From a virus, in UHGV virus genome UHGV-1378817: a stretch of 64,000 nucleotides of DNA; one strand, written 5' to 3'. The translations under genes were made by a program, and so were the position numbers. The notes under the pieces are model-generated. The model saw only the letters and a list, made by a program, of their open reading frames with translations. It did not search any database and had not been told where the DNA came from. Each line of letters begins with the position of its first letter. Positions within the stretch are counted from its first letter, which is position 1. Below are positions 42,751-50,354 of the stretch, piece after piece.

Positions 42751-42827
42751 TGGTCTCCACGGAGTGATTCGAACACTCGACCTCCTGATCCCAAATCAGG
42801 CGCTCTACCAAGCTGAGCTACGCGGAG
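42751..42827 (-). tRNA. tRNA-Pro (anticodon UGG)
   Basis: Hand-folded cloverleaf: acceptor CUCCGCG/CGUGGAG (one G-U), D-arm GCUC..GAGC, anticodon loop UUUGGGA, T-arm GAGUG-UUCGAAU-CACUC, encoded CCA. Confidence 0.8.
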
Positions 42828-42838
42828 TATTTATTATT

Positions 42839-42913
42839 TGGTGGCCCTGGGTGGAATTGAACCACCGTCTGGCGATTATGAGTCGCTTGCTTGAACCTTC
42901 CAGCTACAGGGCC
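42839..42913 (-). tRNA. tRNA-Met (anticodon CAU; elongator Met or Ile2, G1-C72 paired)
   Basis: Acceptor GGCCCUG/CAGGGCC perfect, anticodon loop CUCAUAA, T-arm GGUGG-UUCAAUU-CCACC, encoded CCA. Confidence 0.75.
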
Positions 42914-42914
42914 A

Positions 42915-42990
42915 TGGTGCTGATAGCAGGACTCGAACCTGCAACCTATTGATTACAAATCAATTGCACTACCAATTGTGCTACATCAGC
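42915..42990 (-). tRNA. tRNA-Thr (anticodon UGU)
   Basis: Acceptor GCUGAUG/UAUCAGC (one G-U), D-arm GCAC..GUGC, anticodon loop UUUGUAA, T-arm GCAGG-UUCGAGU-CCUGC, encoded CCA. Confidence 0.8.
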
Positions 42991-42995
42991 AAAAA

Positions 42996-43094
42996 GGTGC
43001 TAGGTGATGGAATCGAACCACCTATGTATTCAACGACTACCTCGTCTATTTTCAGGATTAAAAATCCTCGCCCTTGCCAAAGGGCTTACCTAGC
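42996..43094 (-). ncRNA. atypical tRNA-like gene (98 nt), possible pseudo/variant tRNA with UUU anticodon-like loop
   Basis: Perfect 7-bp acceptor GCUAGGU/ACCUAGC, D-arm GCCC-UUUGGCAA-GGGC, T-arm GGUGG-UUCGAUU-CCAUC, but 3' end is CC not CCA and there is a 30-nt extra region between anticodon and T arms. Confidence 0.35.
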
Positions 43095-43100
43095 TCAGTA

Positions 43101-43189
43101 TGTTGACCATGTTGCTAGTCGGCGATGACGACTGTAACATTTGATAATCCGGTTCTGCTTCCGGCTTTCGCTTAATTACAAGGTCAACA
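43101..43189. ncRNA. candidate structured RNA element inside tRNA cluster
   Basis: 8-bp terminal helix UGUUGACC...GGUCAACA encloses about 72 nt with two internal hairpins (AGUCG/CGACU and CCGG/CCGG); does not fold as a canonical tRNA by hand. Confidence 0.2.
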
Positions 43190-43192
43190 ATA

Positions 43193-43283
43193 TGGCTGAG
43201 GGTAATGGAATCGAACCATCATCGAGTCATCCTCAACGGGACGGTTTTCAAGACCGCTTGAGCACCATTGCTCCCTACCCTCA
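43193..43283 (-). tRNA. tRNA-Ser (anticodon UGA), type II
   Basis: 91 nt; acceptor UGAGGGU/ACCCUCA, anticodon stem GCGGU/ACCGU with loop CUUGAAA, long variable arm, T-arm GAUGG-UUCGAUU-CCAUU, discriminator G, encoded CCA. Confidence 0.7.
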
Positions 43284-43397
43284 TTTATAAACAATACTGA
43301 TAATGACACTGATTTTCGAGCAGTTAGTGACTAGTATAAACGACGATAAATATCAATGCCATTATCTGTATGATTTATGCATTTAAAACTATAAATT

Positions 43398-43484
43398 TGG
43401 TGGGGAGTGGTGGAGTCGAACCACCCGAGTCGCAATGACAATAGATTTACAGTCTACACCGCTACCTCTACGGGATAACTCCCC
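43398..43484 (-). tRNA. tRNA-Tyr (anticodon GUA), type II
   Basis: 87 nt; acceptor GGGGAGU/ACUCCCC, anticodon arm GUAGA-CUGUAAA-UCUAU, long variable arm, T-arm GGUGG-UUCGACU-CCACC, encoded CCA. Confidence 0.8.
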
Positions 43485-43488
43485 AATT

Positions 43489-43563
43489 TGGCACCCCGTA
43501 CTGGACTCGAACCAGTGTCAACGGCTTAGAAGGCCGCTGCTTTATCCACTAAGCTAACAGGGC
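43489..43563 (-). tRNA. tRNA-Arg (anticodon UCU)
   Basis: Acceptor GCCCUGU/ACGGGGU (two G-U), D-arm GCUU..AAGC, anticodon arm GCGGC-CUUCUAA-GCCGU, T-arm CUGG-UUCGAGU-CCAG, encoded CCA. Confidence 0.75.
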
Positions 43564-43621
43564 ACTGGGTGGCTTTCTTTTACACCTTAGCCGCCAGAAA
43601 AGGTGGGAGACCATGTTTACA

Positions 43622-43650
43622 ATATTACACTGTTAAGCAAAGTTTGTCAA
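43622..43650 (-). promoter_or_regulatory. near-consensus sigma70-type promoter for the tRNA cluster (TTGACA-17-TAATAT)
   Basis: Minus strand reads TTGACA AACTTTGCTTAACAGTG TAATAT; predicted start about 50 nt upstream of tRNA-Arg 5' end. Confidence 0.5.
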
Positions 43651-43659
43651 GAAAATATT

Positions 43660-43998
43660 TTAGCTATTGCCAACAGGTTGTATTTCTGTGGTAAATGGCA
43701 TAAAAGGTGCTGGTTTTTCAGCCTCTTCTACTACCACCTCTTCCTCTTCACCAAACATCTCATCATATTCTTCCTGCATTCGGTCTGCCTTATCAAGAAC
43801 ATACTCTGCAATGCTTTGACGAATATTTTGTTTGGTTTTCGGGTCCAACATCAGCTCTCTTAAAACTTTGTGAGCTTCTGGAACCATCGCTATAAAAGAT
43901 TCCTTCATATCAAGGATGTTCTTCTCTAGCTGAATGGCGTTGGACTCCTCTTTCAGAGGTCTGCCTCTACGGCGACGCTTTTTAGTTGTATCCGCCAT
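43660..43998 (-). CDS. small AT-hook-type DNA-binding protein (112 aa), start revised
   Basis: ATG at 43998 with GGAGGA SD; N-terminal KKRRRRGRPLK (AT-hook-like GRP core); acidic C-terminus; track ORF extends upstream without SD. Confidence 0.45.
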   Translation of the reverse strand: MADTTKKRRRRGRPLKEESNAIQLEKNILDMKESFIAMVPEAHKVLRELMLDPKTKQNIRQSIAEYVLDKADRMQEEYDEMFGEEEEVVVEEAEKPAPFMPFTTEIQPVGNS

Positions 43999-44039
43999 GT
44001 TTCCTCCATTATCACGTGATAGGTGGATTTTATCATAGC

Positions 44040-44300
44040 AAATACTGATTGTCAAGTTCGCCGCAGGGTGGTATTCCCTGCGACTTGCCCAGCGTCCTGG
44101 ACCAGCAAGACCCAACAAGTGGGTTTTCCAGCTATACCCATTACCGCACACAGGCTCGACCTTATTACAGGTTGGCTGGGGTCACATCGTCATGTGCTGG
44201 CTGCCCCTACCATTTTAAGTGTGGTGCACTATCAAGCCCTCTAAGGGGAACTCAGCCTTCTCCGAACCCTGTTTCAAAGCATCCGGAGATAAAGCCATCA
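44040..44300. other. GC-rich non-coding island (candidate structured RNA or acquired fragment)
   Basis: Visibly GC-richer than flanking AT-rich phage DNA; local hairpin GCAGGG-UGGUAUU-CCCUGC; overlapping plus-strand ORFs lack SD/start context. Confidence 0.2.
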
Positions 44301-44346
44301 AATTCATCTTTAAATTGGATATTCATCATAATACACGAAAACAACC

Positions 44347-44589
44347 TCATTGTAAAGCACAAATAAATAAAACATACTTAATTTGTTTGTTATCAGGCTC
44401 AGGGTAGAAGTAGAAGATCTTGCTATCACCGATCTGAACACCACCATCCCAACAGCATAGCCCATAACCCGTATTCATACAAGCTAAGTCGTTGGCAAAA
44501 TCTATTGCATCATCCAGTGCACGAAATTCACCTTCATCTTCTAAATAATCCTCATTCATGGAACGAAAAACGAGCTTAACCTTAAACAT
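44347..44589 (-). CDS. hypothetical protein (80 aa)
   Basis: ORF from track; acidic, Cys-containing; no motif recognised. Confidence 0.35.
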   Translation of the reverse strand: MFKVKLVFRSMNEDYLEDEGEFRALDDAIDFANDLACMNTGYGLCCWDGGVQIGDSKIFYFYPEPDNKQIKYVLFICALQ

Positions 44590-44665: not shown

Positions 44666-44875
44666 TCAACAGATTCCGGCCTTATCTCGCCTGTCTGCGT
44701 ATTCTTTAATCGCAACCTCCTCGGCATGGGTGACTAAATCTTCAAAGTAACTCTCAAGCTCCTCGTCAATGTCAGGAAACCAACTCTTTTTCCTGTCAGT
44801 GTGAATCGCAGACTTGTTGAATTTATTACAGTTCTTTGCTACCGGATTGTTCATTAATCGCCCCTCAGCGTTCAT
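44666..44875 (-). CDS. hypothetical protein (69 aa)
   Basis: ORF from track, overlaps upstream gene end by 11 nt. Confidence 0.3.
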   Translation of the reverse strand: MNAEGRLMNNPVAKNCNKFNKSAIHTDRKKSWFPDIDEELESYFEDLVTHAEEVAIKEYADRRDKAGIC

Positions 44876-45443
44876 AGTAAATCTTATTTAACATTACCTC
44901 ATCCTTTGCAGAGAGAATACCGAGATATGCATCACCGAACCTACCTGCAACAACCTCTACATGATACATAACTTCGTTAATATCGTCAAGAGTGATAACT
45001 GGATGACCGTATCTCTCTGAGTATTGTCTCAGAGTGCGATGTAGGGAATCATCATCGTAGGCAGACTTTTTAATATCACAAACACGACGAATAGCCTTGA
45101 TGTCGAAAAACCCTGTGCGATACCAACCAAGAAAAAGGTTTCGTACAGTGTCAACACCTACATCAACACCGTCAAGAACCTTATCTACAAGATAGCTGTC
45201 ATCCTTTGGACCTGCTTCCTTAGTTCGAATGTAGTTGCCATCTTTTCCAGGTGACAGCTCCTTCTCATCACCAACCTGAATGCCATCATTTGGCGGTGTT
45301 AACCACTTATCCGGATGCTTACGATCACGAGCGTTAGAATGATTACGCTGGAAACCTGGCTTCCACTTGAAAGTTTTCTCCATCTGTTCTTCATTCTGAT
45401 AACGTTTTGCAATCTTTTCACGGTCATCTTTGCGTGGACTCAT
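44865..45443 (-). CDS. hypothetical protein (192 aa)
   Basis: ATG with GAGGAGG SD; basic N-terminus; first gene downstream of the long non-coding region. Confidence 0.45.
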   Translation of the reverse strand: MSPRKDDREKIAKRYQNEEQMEKTFKWKPGFQRNHSNARDRKHPDKWLTPPNDGIQVGDEKELSPGKDGNYIRTKEAGPKDDSYLVDKVLDGVDVGVDTVRNLFLGWYRTGFFDIKAIRRVCDIKKSAYDDDSLHRTLRQYSERYGHPVITLDDINEVMYHVEVVAGRFGDAYLGILSAKDEVMLNKIYYER

Positions 45444-46501: not shown

Positions 46502-47056
46502 TTACTCCCCGCTGTCAATAGCAAGACTCATTGCAATACTGTATGCCTCTTCTAATGGTAAGAGTCTACCCCACACATCCCAACCGACATCAAACTGCCT
46601 GCCAAACAACTGTTGTGTGGTTCCGTGAGCATGACCGAACAGTTGTACTGATCCGTGAGGCTTTCTGTTCCACTTTGCAAACTGGTAATGGCTCATACAG
46701 ATCAAATTCTTGTTGTGGCGAAGCTCGTAATAATCTACAACCTCATGATAGAACTCTTTCATAATTCTGACAGTCGTCCTTGTGTCATGGTTGCCACGAA
46801 CAAGAATAATATGTCCGTTCAACATATTTAGAATATCTGGAAGTAAGTTGTTGATATTTTTATCAGTAGTGCACGCAATATCTCCCAAGTGGAACACAGT
46901 GTCTGCAGGTGACACAACAGAGTTCCACTCGGCGATGATTCCCGCATTCATACTGTCAAGATTGTGATCATACTGAGATCTGTGTTTTTGACATGAATCA
47001 AACTCCATGACCCGCTGGTGGAGAAAGTGTGTGTCGCTTGTTACAAAGTATTTCAT
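46502..47056 (-). CDS. calcineurin-like metallophosphoesterase (candidate RNA-repair phosphatase), start revised
   Basis: Motifs SDTHF, HLGDIA, VRGNHD, FGHAHG; ATG at 47056 (MKYFVTSDTHF) lies just past the stop of the kinase gene; track ORF extends to 47161. Confidence 0.65.
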   Translation of the reverse strand: MKYFVTSDTHFLHQRVMEFDSCQKHRSQYDHNLDSMNAGIIAEWNSVVSPADTVFHLGDIACTTDKNINNLLPDILNMLNGHIILVRGNHDTRTTVRIMKEFYHEVVDYYELRHNKNLICMSHYQFAKWNRKPHGSVQLFGHAHGTTQQLFGRQFDVGWDVWGRLLPLEEAYSIAMSLAIDSGE

Positions 47057-47063
47057 ACATTCC

Positions 47064-47474
47064 TCATTTAAGTTTAATGCAGTTTTTAAGCTGGCGTTCC
47101 ATACGATCCACAACCCTGTCTGGAACATCATGAATGCTTTTATTACCGTGTCGGTTTTCAACCACGATTACGGTATAATTATACCCATGGCTGATTGCCA
47201 TGTCAACATATTCTTGCACATGTTTTTCTTTTGTAAACGTATTACTTACCACGATACGGTCGTATCCCATACGCATCATATCTTCTACGTTATCTTTGCA
47301 CCATTTTGCTGCAAGTGTTACTTTACTTGCATCCCAGTTGTAATTGCCGTCATCGTCGTACCAGAACATGTCGTTCTCAAAATGTGGATACAGACCTTCT
47401 AAAGATAGCGCATTTGCCAGTGTTGATTTGCCAGACCCTGGTAGACCACGCACGATATATAGCATTTTAGACAT
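47064..47474 (-). CDS. P-loop kinase, polynucleotide kinase-like, start revised
   Basis: Walker A GLPGSGKST (as in T4 Pnk kinase domain); ATG at 47474 with GGAGG SD; track ORF extends to 47531. Confidence 0.6.
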   Translation of the reverse strand: MSKMLYIVRGLPGSGKSTLANALSLEGLYPHFENDMFWYDDDGNYNWDASKVTLAAKWCKDNVEDMMRMGYDRIVVSNTFTKEKHVQEYVDMAISHGYNYTVIVVENRHGNKSIHDVPDRVVDRMERQLKNCIKLK

Positions 47475-47531: not shown

Positions 47532-47592
47532 GTGTTGACACTAGGTTATTTGTGTGGCAGGATAGACTGACAAAATGACAAATGAGGAACGT

Positions 47593-48510
47593 ATGATGAA
47601 GTATTTTAATGCAGACGACCTAGTTGACAAAGGTCTTGTAACCAGTAGATATTACCCAGATCTTGGGTTAAAGATCTATAAATACGCCAGAAAAGTATTT
47701 TACAACAATTTATGGCATTTGTCCCCTCGTTTACTGGAGTGCCGAGGCATTGTTGTCGGTAATGAAGGAAATGTTGTGGCATGGCCCTTCACAAAAGTGT
47801 TTAACTTGGGAGAAAACTCCACCAACCTGCCTGACAATAAGCTTGTGACGGCGGTAGAGAAAAAGAACGGATTCCTTGGTGTGGTATCATCTCATAAAGG
47901 TGAACTATTGTTCTCAACAACCGGATCTCTTGATTCTCCATATTGTAACCTTGCAAAGGAAACCATCCAGGAGCAATGCGGTAATTTAGATCTTATCAAG
48001 AAGGTTATGGGCAATGAAAACATGACATTCATGTTTGAAATTTGTCACCCTTCAGATCCGCATATTGTTCAGGAAGATCATGGCGCATATTTGATAGGTT
48101 GCAGGTATAATGATTCTGGAATAATGCTACCAGAGGCAGCTTTAGATGGGATTGCCAAATACCTTGGTGCAAAACGTCCTCACACTGTGCGTGAAATTCC
48201 GTTCAGCTATGCAAAAGAATTGGCTGCAGAAACAAGAGGTGAAGGGTATATGATTCGTAAGCCTTACTATCCTTATGATCTGCAGCTGAAGATCAAGTCT
48301 CCATACTATCTGGCACGGAAGGCCGTAATGAGGGGTAAAGCTTGGAAGATTTGGGATGATGATATCTTTAAACGTGTTGACGAAGAGTTTTACGGCATGG
48401 TAAACTTCATTCGCAACAACTACACAGAGGATGTATGGAACTGCCTCCTGGAGCAGGAACGCCGTGAGATACTTGACTACTATTTCCACAACGAGGACTA
48501 TATGCAATGA
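47593..48510 (+). CDS. nucleotidyltransferase-superfamily ligase, RNA-ligase-like
   Basis: Motif I KKNGF (KxNG), motif IV-like EGYMIRK, motif V-like LKIKSP; start taken at ATG 47593 after GAGGA (track 47575); a TTGACA -35-like hexamer lies upstream at 47535. Confidence 0.5.
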   Translation: MMKYFNADDLVDKGLVTSRYYPDLGLKIYKYARKVFYNNLWHLSPRLLECRGIVVGNEGNVVAWPFTKVFNLGENSTNLPDNKLVTAVEKKNGFLGVVSSHKGELLFSTTGSLDSPYCNLAKETIQEQCGNLDLIKKVMGNENMTFMFEICHPSDPHIVQEDHGAYLIGCRYNDSGIMLPEAALDGIAKYLGAKRPHTVREIPFSYAKELAAETRGEGYMIRKPYYPYDLQLKIKSPYYLARKAVMRGKAWKIWDDDIFKRVDEEFYGMVNFIRNNYTEDVWNCLLEQERREILDYYFHNEDYMQ

Positions 48511-48865: not shown

Positions 48866-49627
48866 ATGCGACGACTTATTATTATCTCCGGTGCTGGTTT
48901 GAGCGCTGAATCTGGTATTCCCACTTTCCGATCTGGTAGCACTGCAATGTGGGAGAATTTCAGCATCGATGAGGTGTGCAACATCCACACCTTTGCCAAG
49001 AACTACTATAAGGTGCATGACTTTTACAATGCACGTCGTGTAGCTCTAGGCAGTGTTGAGCCTAACCTTGCACATCTTCGGATCGCTGAGTGGTATTCCC
49101 GCTGGTCTGGTCGTGTGATCAACCTTACCACCAATGTAGATGATTTGCTGGAGCGTGCTGGTGTAAAACATGAAGATATTTTACATGTCCACGGGTATTT
49201 GCCAGAAATAGTCTATGAGGACGATGAAGGAAGTGACGTCATTAAGGACATTGGATACTCTGAGGTAGACGCAGGAAAGTATACCTGGGTTAAGCCTAAT
49301 GTGGTGTTCTTCGGAGAAGTAGCTCCGAAGTATACAGACATGTATGACCTGTTGACTTCTCTTACGAGCAATGATATGGTTATCCTTGTAGGGTGCTCCA
49401 ACACAGTTATCAATTTTAACTGGGAGCTATTCCCTGCCTGCAATAAGGGAACAAAACTGCTGATCGTTAACAAATACGACTCACAGCAGCTAGGGGAGAA
49501 TGGCATTTCACGTAGTGATATTTACCAATATGAGGATCGCGGCATCCCAGTTTGGTTTAACGGGGCGGTTGATGCTTTCTCTGATAAAACATTCATTGAG
49601 ACCGTAGAAAACTTTATGGAACTTTAA
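48866..49627 (+). CDS. Sir2-family NAD-dependent protein (sirtuin-like)
   Basis: GAGLSAESGIPTFR matches the sirtuin GAGIS..SGIP.FR motif; later TTNVDDLLERAG and HG..P blocks; GAGGA SD. Confidence 0.7.
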   Translation: MRRLIIISGAGLSAESGIPTFRSGSTAMWENFSIDEVCNIHTFAKNYYKVHDFYNARRVALGSVEPNLAHLRIAEWYSRWSGRVINLTTNVDDLLERAGVKHEDILHVHGYLPEIVYEDDEGSDVIKDIGYSEVDAGKYTWVKPNVVFFGEVAPKYTDMYDLLTSLTSNDMVILVGCSNTVINFNWELFPACNKGTKLLIVNKYDSQQLGENGISRSDIYQYEDRGIPVWFNGAVDAFSDKTFIETVENFMEL

Positions 49628-49640
49628 AAGGAGACCTTTA

Positions 49641-50354
49641 ATGCTGAATACCAAATTAATTGACAACCTGGAAAAACTGTCCCAACCTGAAAACTACCTT
49701 TGGTCTGCCAACTGGGTGGAAAACTGGAACCGTGTGGCAGCTAAAGTGAAAAAATCATACACACCATTCGAATTACAGCTTAGCTTCATTGAGGAAGAGT
49801 TCAATGAAGTTTTGGAAGAGCTGGAGAAAGGTGATGGCGGAGATCACCTGCTAAAAGAGGCCTGCGATCTTCACGTTGTCACAAGTTATGCCGCTTATCT
49901 TGTTAATGATAATCACGAAAAGTGGTCAAACCTGTTTGATAATCCACAGGGTCTTAAGTTCAAGATCGGTGAGTTCTATGATACACTGATCGCTGCGAAA
50001 AACACCTCTAAGCAAAAAGCGTCCGCTTACCGCTTAGCAGAGTTGTCAACAGCTTTGCTGTTCCAGCTTCGCGGCGATGTGTGCGGGATGATGCGTAAGG
50101 TTCTCAAATCGAATGACAGCAAGTTTGCACGGGTCAACCATCTACGGTATTCACACGGTGCCAGTGCAGATATGCCTGCTGAACAACTCATCGAGTTGGA
50201 GATTAAAGATCTTGAGCGACGCTTTGATGGTCGATATGAAGGTTTTGTTGCTAAGGAAGAATTCTACAACGGTAATAAAGTTATCATATTCCTTGACAGC
50301 AAAGGTAAGATCATGAAGCCTTCGAGCTTCAAGGATGTAACAGAGTATATTTAA
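49641..50354 (+). CDS. MazG-like all-alpha NTP pyrophosphohydrolase domain protein
   Basis: EEEFNEVLEELEKGD ... EACDLH fits the ExxE...ExxD metal-binding pattern; AAGGAG SD. Confidence 0.4.
   Translation: MLNTKLIDNLEKLSQPENYLWSANWVENWNRVAAKVKKSYTPFELQLSFIEEEFNEVLEELEKGDGGDHLLKEACDLHVVTSYAAYLVNDNHEKWSNLFDNPQGLKFKIGEFYDTLIAAKNTSKQKASAYRLAELSTALLFQLRGDVCGMMRKVLKSNDSKFARVNHLRYSHGASADMPAEQLIELEIKDLERRFDGRYEGFVAKEEFYNGNKVIIFLDSKGKIMKPSSFKDVTEYI

What the first reader, a model, noticed from the sequence alone, without database searches (positions are those of the whole stretch)
42751..43650. Compact tRNA operon with two type II tRNAs and a consensus promoter
Six canonical tRNAs could be folded by hand (Pro-UGG, Met-CAU, Thr-UGU, Ser-UGA, Tyr-GUA, Arg-UCU), separated by only 1-11 nt in places, all with encoded CCA. 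They sit downstream of a TTGACA-17-TAATAT promoter on the minus strand. Tyr, Arg and Ser isoacceptors are among the targets reported for tRNA-directed host defences, so the set may be a depletion-compensation kit rather than only codon-usage tuning.
Basis: partly seen in the sequence, partly recalled or inferred. Interest (0 to 1): 0.5.

Follow-up and report, generated by a model that had tools for sequence, protein, structure and literature searches.

The report
Phage tRNA operon plus tRNA mimic
This is the already-published tRNA gene cluster of an rV5-like E. coli phage, which mainly supplies tRNAs for codons the phage uses far more than its host does, but it also contains a seventh, strongly conserved tRNA-shaped RNA of unknown function that annotators have missed or mislabelled.

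Summary
Six canonical tRNAs with encoded CCA (Arg-UCU, Tyr-GUA, Ser-UGA, Thr-UGU, CAU, Pro-UGG) lie on the minus strand behind TTGACA-17-TAATAT. The window is an rV5-like Vequintavirus, and these six tRNAs were published in 2013 with a codon-usage rationale.

The 'Met-CAU' is really an Ile2-type tRNA that reads AUA. The set matches the codons most over-used by the phage relative to E. coli (AGA 12.7x, AGG 10.2x, ACA 4.8x, AUA 4.6x; rank test p about 6e-4). Five of six anticodon loops are identical to the host's.

The 'depletion-compensation kit' idea is therefore not the main explanation. It is plausible for tRNA-Tyr, which shows no codon bias and is 95% identical to the T-even tRNA-Tyr family. 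T6's member of that family has been shown to counter Septu. A heal-and-seal RNA-repair cassette lies about 3-4 kb away.

The new result is a seventh element (42996-43094). It is a tRNA-shaped RNA conserved across Vequintavirinae, with 100% base-pairing and 11 of 20 pairs covarying, including the tertiary 19:56 pair. Its variable region has invariant flanks and its 'anticodon' loop is not conserved. Its function is unknown.

The parts
43622..43650 (-). sigma-70-type promoter: TTGACA (43650-43645), 17-nt spacer, TAATAT (43627-43622)
   Evidence: Consensus scan, 10 of 12 positions. Hexamers invariant in seven Vequintavirus variants. Lies 58 nt upstream of tRNA-Arg.
43489..43563 (-). tRNA-Arg(UCU), CCA encoded; reads AGA and AGG
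   Evidence: ARAGORN. Rfam 67.8 bits. 74% identical to argU with an identical anticodon loop. AGA is 12.7x and AGG 10.2x enriched in the phage.
43398..43484 (-). tRNA-Tyr(GUA), type II, CCA encoded
   Evidence: ARAGORN. Rfam 29.9 bits. 95.4% identical to T2 tRNA-Tyr including the variable arm, and 67% identical to tyrU.
43284..43397 (-). 114-nt AT-rich spacer that folds into a long imperfect hairpin; possible processing site or internal promoter
   Evidence: MFE -26.4 kcal/mol, z = -4.2, 0 of 200 shuffles as stable. Promoter-like ATGGCA-18-TATACT at 43362..43333.
43193..43283 (-). tRNA-Ser(UGA), type II, CCA encoded
   Evidence: ARAGORN. 61% identical to serT with an identical anticodon loop. 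The blastn match to phage D6 (80.4%) spans tRNA-Ser and the adjacent module.
43110..43177 (-). about 67-nt two-hairpin sequence module inside the 98-nt Ser-to-element-7 spacer (43095-43192), shared with lambda and P1-like phages
   Evidence: 83-87% identical to lambda 44866-44952, to P7 and to D6; found in 426 of 5426 E. coli genomes. No covariation support.
42996..43094 (-). element 7: conserved non-canonical type-II-like tRNA-shaped RNA. It has a 7-bp acceptor stem, D arm, 15-nt 'anticodon' hairpin (loop UUUUUAA or UUUUA), a 31-nt variable region with invariant flanks, a T arm, and A73 followed by CC.
   Evidence: ARAGORN tRNA-???(atcc). Rfam tRNA 35.5 bits. Fold z = -3.7. Covariation on 18 and 23 homologues.
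42915..42990 (-). tRNA-Thr(UGU), CCA encoded
   Evidence: ARAGORN. Rfam 76.2 bits. 75% identical to thrU, with the loop differing only at C32U. ACA is 4.8x enriched.
42839..42913 (-). tRNA-Ile2 type (anticodon CAU, presumably lysidine-modified to read AUA), CCA encoded; not Met
   Evidence: 76% identical to ileX against 63% to metT. Anticodon stem-loop GCGACUCAUAAUCGC is identical to ileX. C4:G69 and C5:G68 are present. 98.7% identical to the T2 'Met' tRNA. BASEL annotates it as Ile/ATA. AUA is 4.6x enriched.
42751..42827 (-). tRNA-Pro(UGG), CCA encoded
   Evidence: ARAGORN. Rfam 66.4 bits. 76% identical to proM with an identical loop. 83% identical to T2 Pro.
43660..43998 (-). upstream ORF (112 aa, phrog_3330): small charged protein that travels with the tRNA clusters of Vequintavirinae
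   Evidence: PHROG hit E = 3e-46. No Pfam domain. Found only in Vequintavirinae. Invariant RRGRPLKEESNAIQLEKN and PFTTEI motifs. The same PHROG lies just before tRNA-Tyr in FENT2.
46502..47474 (-). end-healing pair: P-loop kinase (47064-47474) followed by a metallophosphoesterase (46502-47056)
   Evidence: Pfam AAA_33 and Metallophos. Motifs GLPGSGKST and DTH, GDIA, GNHD, GHAH.
47575..48510 (+). Rnl1-family (T4 gp63-type) RNA ligase, divergently transcribed from the healing pair
   Evidence: PF09511 at 56 bits against a cut-off of 28.3. phrog_562, E = 1e-66. KKNG lysine motif.

Best explanation
The locus is the polycistronic tRNA operon of an rV5-like Vequintavirus. Host RNA polymerase probably transcribes it from a sigma-70-type promoter, and probably also by read-through from stronger upstream promoters. 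Host RNase P and 3' exonucleases would then cut out the individual RNAs; these steps are inferred. The main job of the six tRNAs is supply. Arg-UCU, Ile2-CAU, Thr-UGU, Pro-UGG and Ser-UGA read A-ending or rare codons (AGA/AGG, AUA, ACA, CCA/CCU, UCA/UCU). The 44%-GC phage uses these 1.5-13 times more than its 52%-GC host, which serves them only with minor tRNAs. tRNA-Tyr does not fit this logic. It most likely buffers tRNA-Tyr supply against variable-arm-cutting nucleases of the Septu and retron-Eco7 type, acting through dosage. The operon also carries a seventh product: a tRNA-shaped RNA under strong structural selection. It is probably not an ordinary decoder and its function is unknown. The rival explanations cover the options for it.
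For: Shown:
- Six tRNAs are found by two methods, and the promoter motif is present.
- Codon enrichment ranks are AGA 1, AGG 2, ACA 3, AUA 4, CCT 6, ACT 10, TCT 11, TCA 14, TAC 19 and CCA 20 of 61. The permutation p for the six cognate codons is 6e-4.
- The original rV5 paper reached the same view for Arg and Pro (PMC3606486).
- The CAU tRNA is ileX-like.
- Anticodon loops are identical to the host's in five of six tRNAs.
- Tyr and Ile2 are 95-99% identical to the T2 tRNAs, and 738 phage records share parts of the cluster.
- T6 tRNA-Tyr counters Septu by dosage, and T5 tRNA-Tyr counters retron-Eco7.
- An RNA-repair cassette lies nearby.
- Element 7: 460 of 460 cells are paired, 11 of 20 pairs covary, and slid controls give 35-47% pairing.
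Against: - There are no expression, processing or charging data.
- The host codon sample is only 48 K-12 genes, and the phage sample is 55 mechanically chosen ORFs from a 64-kb window.
- Codon matching is correlative and would also arise if tRNAs were simply acquired from AT-rich donors.
- Natural variants lacking Tyr, Ser and element 7 are viable (V18; O157 typing phage 4), so these parts are accessory.
- The tRNA bodies are 24-39% diverged from the host's, which leaves room for resistance to nucleases that recognise stems or elbows.
- The promoter match is 10 of 12, and such matches are not rare in this AT-rich region.
Confidence: 0.72

Rival explanations
1. The whole set is primarily an anti-defence kit. 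On this view each tRNA replaces a host tRNA destroyed by a tRNA-directed nuclease, and the codon match is secondary.
For: Tyr, Lys and other tRNAs are proven targets, and phage tRNAs rescue infection. The van den Berg hypothesis proposes this generally. The phage carries RNA-repair genes. The tRNA bodies are 24-39% diverged from the host's. A near-consensus promoter resembles the strong-promoter, dosage-based strategy reported for T5.
Against: Five of six anticodon loops are identical to the host's. The set coincides with the most over-used codons. In the papers I read, only tRNA-Tyr (Septu, retron-Eco7) and tRNA-Lys (PrrC, PARIS) had E. coli phage-defence nucleases shown to act on them; I found none for Arg-UCU, Ile2, Thr-UGU, Pro-UGG or Ser-UGA. 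T6 tRNA-Tyr is itself cleaved by Septu.
Confidence: 0.2
2. Element 7 is a tRNA mimic that acts as a decoy or competitive inhibitor for a host factor that recognises the tRNA L-shape. One example is a nuclease directed at the variable arm or acceptor stem, such as PtuAB/Septu, retron Eco2, or toxins that modify the CCA end. Its fast-changing 'anticodon' loop and variable hairpin would then reflect an arms race.
For: The L-shape determinants are strictly kept, including the 19:56 swap, while the loop and variable hairpin change between clades. It has a prominent type II arm, which is the part of tRNA-Tyr that Septu and Eco7 cut. It is restricted to virulent phages and absent from 185,579 bacterial and archaeal genomes. 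In this genus the hairpin GGAUUUUUAAUCC nearly copies the E. coli tRNA-Lys stem-loop UGACUUUUAAUCA, which PrrC and PARIS target. Chihara et al. themselves raise a decoy role for phage tRNA-Tyr.
Against: There is no experimental link. The invariant single-stranded flanks (GAAAA... and ...AUACAUA) are not explained by this idea. Henunavirus clusters have element 7 but no tRNA-Tyr within 3 kb. Decoys normally need high abundance, which is untested.
Confidence: 0.18
3. In this phage genus, element 7 is a working, unusual type-II-shaped tRNA-Lys(UUU). It would be charged by LysRS and would supply or protect lysine decoding.
For: If the invariant G.G counts as the 27:43 pair, the loop is UUUUUAA with U33, U34-U36 and A37, and the discriminator is A73. 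From general knowledge, anticodon plus A73 make up the E. coli LysRS identity set. Rfam tRNA scores it 35.5 bits. tRNAscan-based annotations call it tRNA-Lys. Lys codons make up 6.3% of phage codons and AAG is 3.2x enriched.
Against: Homologues in the sister group have UAU with C73 or U73. Most clades have 6-nt loops and fail the tRNA model. Position 26 is missing from the Rfam alignment. A 31-nt variable region is unprecedented for tRNA-Lys. The 3' end is ACC followed by U5 rather than CCA. Other pipelines label it pseudo or OTHER.
Confidence: 0.12
4. Element 7 is a decaying tRNA pseudogene with no function.
For: It has a non-canonical loop, is labelled 'tRNA-Pseudo/OTHER' in some records, and is dispensable in V18.
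Against: All 460 cells form standard pairs. Compensatory changes occur in 11 of 20 pairs across at least six genera, together with a tertiary-pair swap. U73-CCA is kept in all clades outside the E. coli phages. The flanks stay invariant even under 5'-anchored retrieval.
Confidence: 0.03

Closest known systems
T-even phage tRNA clusters (the T4 tRNA operon; the T2/T6 'tRNA-rich region')
   Same: Tightly packed tRNAs for Arg-UCU, Ile2-CAU, Thr-UGU, Ser-UGA and Pro-UGG, plus Tyr in T2/T6. Tyr and Ile2 are 95-99% identical to T2's. Codon-supplement logic applies. T6 tRNA-Tyr has a demonstrated anti-Septu role.
   Different: No segB homing endonuclease is present. The gene order differs, and Gln, Leu and Gly are absent. 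Ser and Arg are only 61-67% identical to T2's. Element 7 and the lambda-like module are present here.
T5-like tRNA-rich region with anti-defence tRNAs (tRNA-Tyr against retron-Eco7; tRNA-Lys against PARIS and PrrC)
   Same: A phage tRNA is expressed from a strong promoter to replace a host tRNA cut by a defence nuclease.
   Different: The resistance-conferring changes shown for T5 (a stem swap in tRNA-Lys; a distinctive Tyr variable loop) are not demonstrated here. Five of six loops equal the host's.
T4 stable RNAs 'species 1 and 2' (RNA C and D) in the T4 tRNA cluster (from my own knowledge, not tested here)
   Same: Small stable non-decoding RNAs that are co-transcribed and co-processed with phage tRNAs, have tRNA-like 3' domains, and have no known function.
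   Different: I could not test for sequence or architectural similarity. Element 7 is a complete cloverleaf with a type II arm.
tRNA-Sec (Rfam RF01852) and allo-tRNAs (Mukai et al., PMC5389517)
   Same: A long variable arm, a possible 6-bp D stem with a 4-nt loop, no free position 26, diverse or UCA 'anticodons', and occurrence in phages.
   Different: The acceptor/T architecture is 7/5, not 8/5, 8/4 or 9/3. The discriminator is U73 or A73, not G73. Scores of 23-39 bits fall below the gathering score of 47. The 'anticodon' hairpin is 15-16 nt long.
T4 Pnkp plus Rnl1 tRNA repair pathway (the neighbouring cassette)
   Same: P-loop kinase, phosphoesterase and Rnl1-family ligase, all with intact motifs.
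   Different: The healing phosphatase is a metallophosphoesterase on a separate polypeptide, as in bacterial Pnkp, rather than the DxD phosphatase of T4 Pnkp. Activity and substrate are untested.

Membership tests
Canonical bacterial-type tRNA genes (the six) | Cloverleaf recognised by independent tRNA finders | tested here: met
   ARAGORN calls all six. Rfam RF00005 scores 60-76 bits for four and 29.9 bits for Tyr. For Ser, the listed clan hit is tRNA-Sec at 40.2 bits, below that family's cut-off.
Canonical bacterial-type tRNA genes (the six) | 7-nt anticodon loop with U33 and a purine at 37; discriminator followed by 3' CCA | tested here: met
   Read. The loops are UUUGGGA, CUCAUAA, UUUGUAA, CUUGAAA, CUGUAAA and CUUCUAA. 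All six end in N73-CCA.
Canonical bacterial-type tRNA genes (the six) | Expression, processing and aminoacylation | not testable with these tools
   Indirect only: T6 tRNA-Tyr, from the same T-even tRNA-Tyr family as the T2 copy (95.4% identical to this one), is detected by northern blot in infected cells (PMC13096335).
tRNA-Ile2 (CAU, lysidine-dependent, reads AUA) | ileX-type anticodon stem-loop and acceptor pairs C4:G69 and C5:G68; not an initiator (1:72 is paired) | tested here: met
   GCGACUCAUAAUCGC is identical to ileX. The acceptor stem is GGCCCUG/CAGGGCC. Identity is 76% to ileX against 63% to metT.
tRNA-Ile2 (CAU, lysidine-dependent, reads AUA) | C34 modified to lysidine by TilS | not testable with these tools
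   Needs mass spectrometry or tRNA-seq.
sigma-70 promoter | -35 and -10 hexamers with 16-18 nt spacing, suitably placed | tested here: met
   TTGACA-17-TAATAT lies 58 nt upstream of the first tRNA. The hexamers are invariant in seven variants.
sigma-70 promoter | Mapped transcription start | not testable with these tools
   Needs 5' RACE or cappable-seq.
Anti-defence ('depletion-compensating') phage tRNA | The isoacceptor is a demonstrated target of a phage-defence nuclease | tested here: inconclusive
   From the literature, this holds for Tyr (Septu, retron-Eco7). I found nothing equivalent in E. coli phage defence for Arg-UCU, Ile2, Thr-UGU, Pro-UGG or Ser-UGA.
Anti-defence ('depletion-compensating') phage tRNA | The phage copy differs from the host copy at the recognition or cleavage site | tested here: not met
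   Anticodon loops are identical in five of six tRNAs, and Thr differs only at C32U. The Tyr variable loop differs from the host's (AUUGC against ACA), but the T6 tRNA-Tyr, from the same T-even family, is still cleaved.
Anti-defence ('depletion-compensating') phage tRNA | Rescue of infection on a defence-carrying host | not testable with these tools
   This has been shown for T6 tRNA-Tyr, not for this phage.
Element 7 as a standard decoding tRNA (RF00005) | Reaches the curated tRNA score | tested here: inconclusive
   The window copy scores 35.5 bits and TH18 33.1 bits, both above the cut-off of 29. In KE22, SSE121, GAP31, Mydo, FENT2, Hena1 and Av-05 no RF00005 hit is listed. The only listed hit in the tRNA clan is tRNA-Sec at 23-39 bits, below its cut-off of 47. 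ARAGORN does not call element 7 in any of the other genera.
Element 7 as a standard decoding tRNA (RF00005) | 17-nt anticodon arm with a 7-nt loop, and an anticodon conserved among orthologues | tested here: not met
   The arm is 15-16 nt long. The loops seen are UUUUA, UUAUA, CAUCCA, CCACCA, CCGCCA, CUUCCA, CAGCCA, CCUCCA, CAUCAAA, UAUCAAA, GUGAUA and AAUCAAG.
Element 7 as a standard decoding tRNA (RF00005) | L-shape core: acceptor, D and T helices and the G19:C56 elbow pair | tested here: met
   100% of cells are paired and 11 of 20 pairs covary. The 19:56 pair is GC in 14 sequences and UA in 9.
Element 7 as tRNA-Sec (RF01852) | Gathering score, 8/5 acceptor/T architecture, G73 and a UCA anticodon | tested here: not met
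   The best score is 39.0 bits against 47. The architecture is 7/5. The discriminator is U73 or A73. UCA occurs only in the Henunavirus-type clade.
T4-type heal-and-seal RNA repair (neighbouring genes) | Kinase P-loop, phosphoesterase motifs and an Rnl1 ligase domain with the catalytic lysine motif | tested here: met
   Pfam AAA_33, Metallophos and RNA_lig_T4_1, with the motifs visible.
T4-type heal-and-seal RNA repair (neighbouring genes) | Repairs cleaved tRNA in vivo | not testable with these tools
   Needs biochemistry or genetics.

The most novel reading that the evidence does not exclude
Element 7 may define a previously undescribed family of phage tRNA mimics, conserved across Vequintavirinae. 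The family keeps the tRNA L-shape, the acceptor end and a type II arm, but has given up decoding. It could work as a decoy or inhibitor of host tRNA-directed immunity, or as a non-ribosomal aminoacyl carrier or regulator. Its 'anticodon' hairpin would be retuned in each host range: tRNA-Lys-like in E. coli phages and Gly-like NCC loops elsewhere. A neighbouring tRNA slot in sister genera also shows 6-, 7- and 8-nt loops, which suggests this is a recurring strategy.
Probability: 0.2. Interest if true: 0.75.

Novelty: new variant of a known kind. Interest (0 to 1): 0.42.

Why it matters
The six tRNAs and the promoter are already known for rV5 (2013) and are ordinary. Three things go beyond that.

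1. The analysis gives a clean test case separating the codon-supply and anti-defence explanations for phage tRNAs. Supply explains five tRNAs. Defence plausibly explains Tyr.

2. It corrects the 'unwarranted tRNA-Met' of the rV5 literature to an AUA-reading Ile2-type tRNA.

3. It identifies a tRNA-shaped RNA under strong purifying and compensatory selection in a whole phage subfamily. Standard tRNA finders miss it in most genera, and databases label it inconsistently (Lys, OTHER, Pseudo, TERM, hypothetical protein). If it turns out to be a decoy for tRNA-directed immunity, it would be a new class of RNA-based anti-defence factor. That could be tested directly with existing BASEL phages and defence panels.

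Tried and rejected
- **Pseudogene reading of element 7:** rejected by covariation.
- **tRNA-Sec or allo-tRNA membership:** sub-threshold scores, 7/5 architecture and U73.
- **YrlA, tmRNA and other Rfam families:** only weak chance-level hits overlapping ordinary tRNAs.
- **Hammerhead-like reading of CUGA...GAAA around the variable hairpin:** by inspection, the core G8 and the GAAA are not conserved across clades.
- **Pairing between the two invariant flanks:** seen only in the Henunavirus and L048 clades (and inspection), so it is not general.
- **Bacterial origin of element 7:** 0 matches in 185,579 genomes.
- **Retrieval bias as the cause of the 3'-flank invariance:** a 5'-anchored scan still recovers AUACAUAGG in every true homologue. 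L062, L063 and L066 were chance matches.
- **Spacer-1 module as a structured RNA:** no covariation in three divergent copies, and its function is left open.
- **phrog_3330 protein as a homologue of the T5/SP15 anti-retron factor:** tblastn finds it only in Vequintavirinae, and it has no Pfam domain. I did not attempt structure prediction.
- **PDB sequence search for the ligase:** no hit.
Full report
**Observation**

ARAGORN on the whole window finds seven genes, all on the minus strand between 42751 and 43563:
- Pro(tgg) 42751-42827
- 'Met'(cat) 42839-42913
- Thr(tgt) 42915-42990
- an odd 'tRNA-???(atcc)' 42996-43094
- Ser(tga) 43193-43283
- Tyr(gta) 43398-43484
- Arg(tct) 43489-43563

Rfam's tRNA model independently scores Thr, Arg, Pro and CAU at 60-76 bits, Tyr at 29.9 and the odd one at 35.5, against a gathering score of 29. 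For Ser the listed clan hit is the tRNA-Sec model, below its threshold, as often happens with type II tRNAs. Reading the sequence confirms that the six canonical genes end in discriminator plus CCA. The gaps are 4, 114, 98, 5, 1 and 11 nt.

TTGACA-17-TAATAT lies at 43650..43622 on the minus strand, 58 nt upstream of tRNA-Arg.

**What the window is, and what was already known**

The region is 99.7% identical to rV5-like Vequintavirus genomes. The 2013 description of rV5 already reported six tRNAs (Arg, Tyr, Thr, Met, Pro, Ser) and argued from codon usage that Arg and Pro would speed translation. It called the 'Met' tRNA 'seemingly unwarranted' and did not mention a seventh element (PMC3606486).

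Public records label the seventh element inconsistently as tRNA-Lys, tRNA-OTHER, tRNA-Pseudo, tRNA-???(atcc) or tRNA-TERM, or leave it unannotated. In some sister-genus records, small 'hypothetical protein' CDSs are drawn over it.

**Context**

The operon follows a 112-aa ORF of PHROG 3330. It precedes a small ORF, two Rz-like spanin genes and the large terminase subunit on the same strand, so it sits at the junction of an early-looking region and the lysis/packaging genes. Stronger promoter-like sites lie further upstream, for example TTGACA-17-TAAAAT with a TG extension at 44055..44027, so read-through is likely. No terminator-like site follows tRNA-Pro before the next ORF.

**Testing the 'depletion-compensation kit' idea**

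(i) Codon usage. I counted 17,747 codons from 55 long window ORFs and 14,426 codons from 48 annotated E. coli K-12 genes. The four most phage-enriched codons are AGA (12.7x), AGG (10.2x), ACA (4.8x) and AUA (4.6x). These are exactly the codons read by Arg-UCU, Thr-UGU and the CAU tRNA. CCU, ACU, UCU, UCA and CCA are 1.5-2.4x enriched. The six cognate codons rank 1, 3, 4, 14, 19 and 20 of 61, with permutation p = 6e-4. Tyr shows no synonymous shift (TAC fraction 0.48 against 0.47); tyrosine is simply 1.5x more frequent overall.

(ii) Host comparison. The phage tRNAs are 61-76% identical to proM, ileX, thrU, serT, tyrU and argU. The anticodon loops are nevertheless identical in five of six, and Thr differs only at C32U. 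The CAU tRNA shares ileX's entire anticodon stem-loop and the C4:G69 and C5:G68 pairs, and is 76% identical to ileX against 63% to metT. It is therefore an Ile2-type tRNA reading AUA, as BASEL annotates it.

(iii) Relatives. Tyr and Ile2 are 95.4% and 98.7% identical to the phage T2 genes, Pro is 83%, and Ser and Arg are only 61-67%. Hundreds of T-even genomes share pieces of the cluster, so these genes belong to a pool of phage tRNAs that moves between families.

(iv) Literature.
- Septu and retron-Eco7 (PtuAB) cleave the variable arm of tRNA-Tyr. T6 escapes Septu by raising the dosage of its own tRNA-Tyr, which is itself cleavable, and T4, which lacks tRNA-Tyr, cannot escape (PMC13096335).
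- T5 tRNA-Tyr counters retron-Eco7, and tRNA-Lys counters PrrC170 (PMC11555353).
- T5 tRNA-Lys evades PARIS through a swap in its anticodon stem (PMC11464382).
- The general hypothesis of anticodon-loop escape mutations comes from van den Berg et al. (PMC10264068).

(v) Repair genes. About 3-4 kb upstream, the phage encodes a P-loop kinase (47064-47474, minus strand), a metallophosphoesterase (46502-47056, minus strand) and a divergently transcribed Rnl1/gp63-family RNA ligase (47575-48510, plus strand). All three have intact catalytic motifs. This is the enzyme set that heals and seals nuclease-cut tRNA in T4.

Taken together, codon supply is the best explanation for five tRNAs. A defence-buffering role is plausible, and supported by homology to a tested gene, only for Tyr. 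The loop-mutation signature of nuclease evasion is absent.

**Element 7 (42996-43094)**

It folds as a cloverleaf (MFE -34.2 kcal/mol, z = -3.7). Its parts are:
- a 7-bp acceptor stem;
- a D arm, GCCC-UUUGGCAA-GGGC, which could also form a 6-bp stem with a 4-nt loop;
- a single G;
- a 15-nt hairpin, AGGAU-UUUUA-AUCCU;
- a 31-nt variable region made of GAAAAUA, a 5-bp hairpin and GAAUACAUA;
- a T arm, GGUGG-UUCGAUU-CCAUC;
- A73 followed by CC and then U5.

Distant-mode BLAST, pattern scans and metagenome scans recovered about 30 distinct homologues. They come from Vequintavirus, Avunavirus, Seunavirus, Mydovirus, Henunavirus and unclassified relatives, including viral and metagenome contigs. 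None was found in 185,579 bacterial and archaeal genomes.

On 23 distinct sequences, all 460 base-pair cells form standard pairs. Eleven of 20 pairs show changes on both sides, and slid controls give 35-47% pairing with at most 2 such pairs (an 18-sequence version is). The tertiary elbow pair covaries: D-loop UUUGGCAA goes with T-loop UUCGAUU (14 sequences), and UUUGUCAA goes with UUAGAUU (9 sequences). Every clade outside the E. coli phages encodes U73-CCA.

By contrast, the 'anticodon' arm is only 15-16 nt long and its loop is not conserved. Loops seen are UUUUA, UUAUA, CAUCCA, CCACCA, CCGCCA, CUUCCA, CAGCCA, CCUCCA, C/UAUCAAA, GUGAUA and AAUCAAG. The variable hairpin differs in sequence and length between clades while remaining a hairpin.

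The flanks G-AAAA... and ...AUACAUA-GG are invariant. The 3' flank stays invariant even when homologues are retrieved with a pattern that specifies only the D-arm region.

ARAGORN does not call the element in any genus other than Vequintavirus. In those genera the only listed hit in Rfam's tRNA clan is tRNA-Sec at 23-39 bits, below its cut-off of 47. A natural deletion in phage V18 fuses the 5' half of tRNA-Tyr to the 3' part of element 7, so the element is dispensable in culture.

The element is always adjacent to tRNA-Thr(UGU). In Vequintavirus it lies 5 nt before Thr. In the other genera it follows Thr directly or with one tRNA between them.

**How element 7 may work**

Shown: it is an L-shaped, tRNA-like RNA gene under structural selection, sitting inside a tRNA operon. 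Inferred: RNase P and 3' trimming process it, and it carries or can acquire a CCA end.

The non-conserved, undersized anticodon arm argues against ordinary decoding across the family. Three possibilities remain open:
- a decoy or inhibitor of host factors that recognise the tRNA body;
- a non-decoding aminoacyl carrier or regulatory RNA;
- in this genus only, an odd tRNA-Lys. The loop UUUUUAA plus A73 equals the LysRS identity set (from general knowledge), and the hairpin GGAUUUUUAAUCC nearly copies the E. coli tRNA-Lys hairpin UGACUUUUAAUCA.

Nothing computed here decides between these.

**Other features**

The 98-nt spacer between Ser and element 7 contains a sharply bounded module of about 67 nt (43110-43177). 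It is 83-87% identical to lambda 44866-44952 (between orf-64 and S), to P7 and to D6. In D6 it also follows a tRNA-Ser(UGA); the blastn match there, 80.4% identical, spans tRNA-Ser and the module. The module occurs in 426 of 5,426 complete E. coli genomes. Three divergent copies give no covariation, so I cannot say whether it is an RNA element or a recombination scar.

The 114-nt Tyr-Ser spacer folds into a long imperfect hairpin (z = -4.2), which would suit an RNase III-type processing site, and it carries a weak promoter-like match.

**Comparison with known systems, and verdict**

As a tRNA operon, this is a member of the well-known class of myovirus tRNA clusters. It is closest to the T-even clusters, with which it shares near-identical genes, and it is already published for rV5. 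Element 7 belongs to no curated RNA family. It resembles tRNA-Sec and allo-tRNAs in having a long arm and a compact D arm, and (from memory) the T4 'species 1/2' RNAs in being a non-decoding product of a phage tRNA operon. It fails the defining features of both tRNA-Sec and standard tRNA. I rate it a new variant of a known kind, the tRNA-like RNAs.

Its functional speculation is partly right, for Tyr only. The overlooked seventh element is the part worth an experiment.

Noticed in passing
window 43110-43177 (-), within spacer 43095-43192: A module of about 67 nt with two hairpins (AAUUAAGCGAA..CCGGAAGCAGAACCGG..CAGNCGUCAUCGCCGNC..AGCAACA) is shared at 83-87% identity with lambda 44866-44952, P7 and D6, and with 426 of 5426 E. 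coli genomes. In D6 it follows a tRNA-Ser(UGA), as it does here. Its function is unknown, and three divergent copies show no covariation.
   Followed up: partly
window 43284-43397 (-): The AT-rich 114-nt Tyr-Ser spacer forms a roughly 20-bp imperfect hairpin (z = -4.2). It also contains a promoter-like ATGGCA-18-TATACT. It could be an RNase III-type processing site or an internal promoter.
   Followed up: partly
window 46502-47474 (-) and 47575-48510 (+): A complete heal-and-seal RNA-repair cassette lies about 3-4 kb from the tRNA operon. It comprises a P-loop kinase (AAA_33), a metallophosphoesterase and an Rnl1/gp63-family RNA ligase, all with intact motifs.
   Followed up: partly
window 48866-49627 (+) and 49641-50354 (+): A phage-encoded Sir2-family protein (Pfam SIR2, 96 bits) sits immediately after the RNA ligase, followed by a MazG-like nucleotide pyrophosphohydrolase (PHROG hit only). 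Both could relate to NAD or nucleotide-based host defences.
   Followed up: no
window 43660-43998 (-): A 112-aa protein (phrog_3330) is found only in Vequintavirinae. It has an invariant AT-hook-like RRGRPLKEESNAIQLEKN, an acidic tail and a C-terminal PFTTEI. It is syntenic with the tRNA clusters and lies just before tRNA-Tyr in other genera.
   Followed up: partly
L003:1419-1494, L010:1429-1505, L011:1432-1505, L013:1431-1505, L014:1432-1505: In sister genera, the tRNA slot between Thr and element 7 holds orthologous tRNA-like genes (U1:A72, G73). Their 'anticodon' loops are 7 nt (Ile-GAU; Arg-GCG), 8 nt (agat) or 6 nt (ga). This is a second case of a conserved tRNA body with a shifting loop.
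   Followed up: partly
L022 (phage V18) about 1446-1542: A natural deletion joins the 5' half of tRNA-Tyr (through its anticodon arm) to the 3' part of element 7, removing Ser and both spacers. O157 typing phage 4 likewise keeps only Arg, Thr, CAU and Pro.
   Followed up: partly
GenBank records MG065635, MG065653, MG065654 and others: About 18 records named 'Campylobacter phage' with host C. jejuni are 98-99.5% identical to this E. coli Vequintavirus locus. The host labels are probably wrong, or the samples contaminated.
   Followed up: no
window codon usage: AAG (Lys) is 3.2x enriched and makes up 43% of Lys codons, against 21% in the host. No tRNA-Lys(CUU) is encoded. The only Lys-like element is the non-canonical element 7 with a UUU loop.
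   Followed up: no
window 44027-44055 (-) and 44328-44356 (-): Two further promoter-like sites lie upstream on the same strand. The tRNA operon may therefore also be transcribed by read-through.
   Followed up: no
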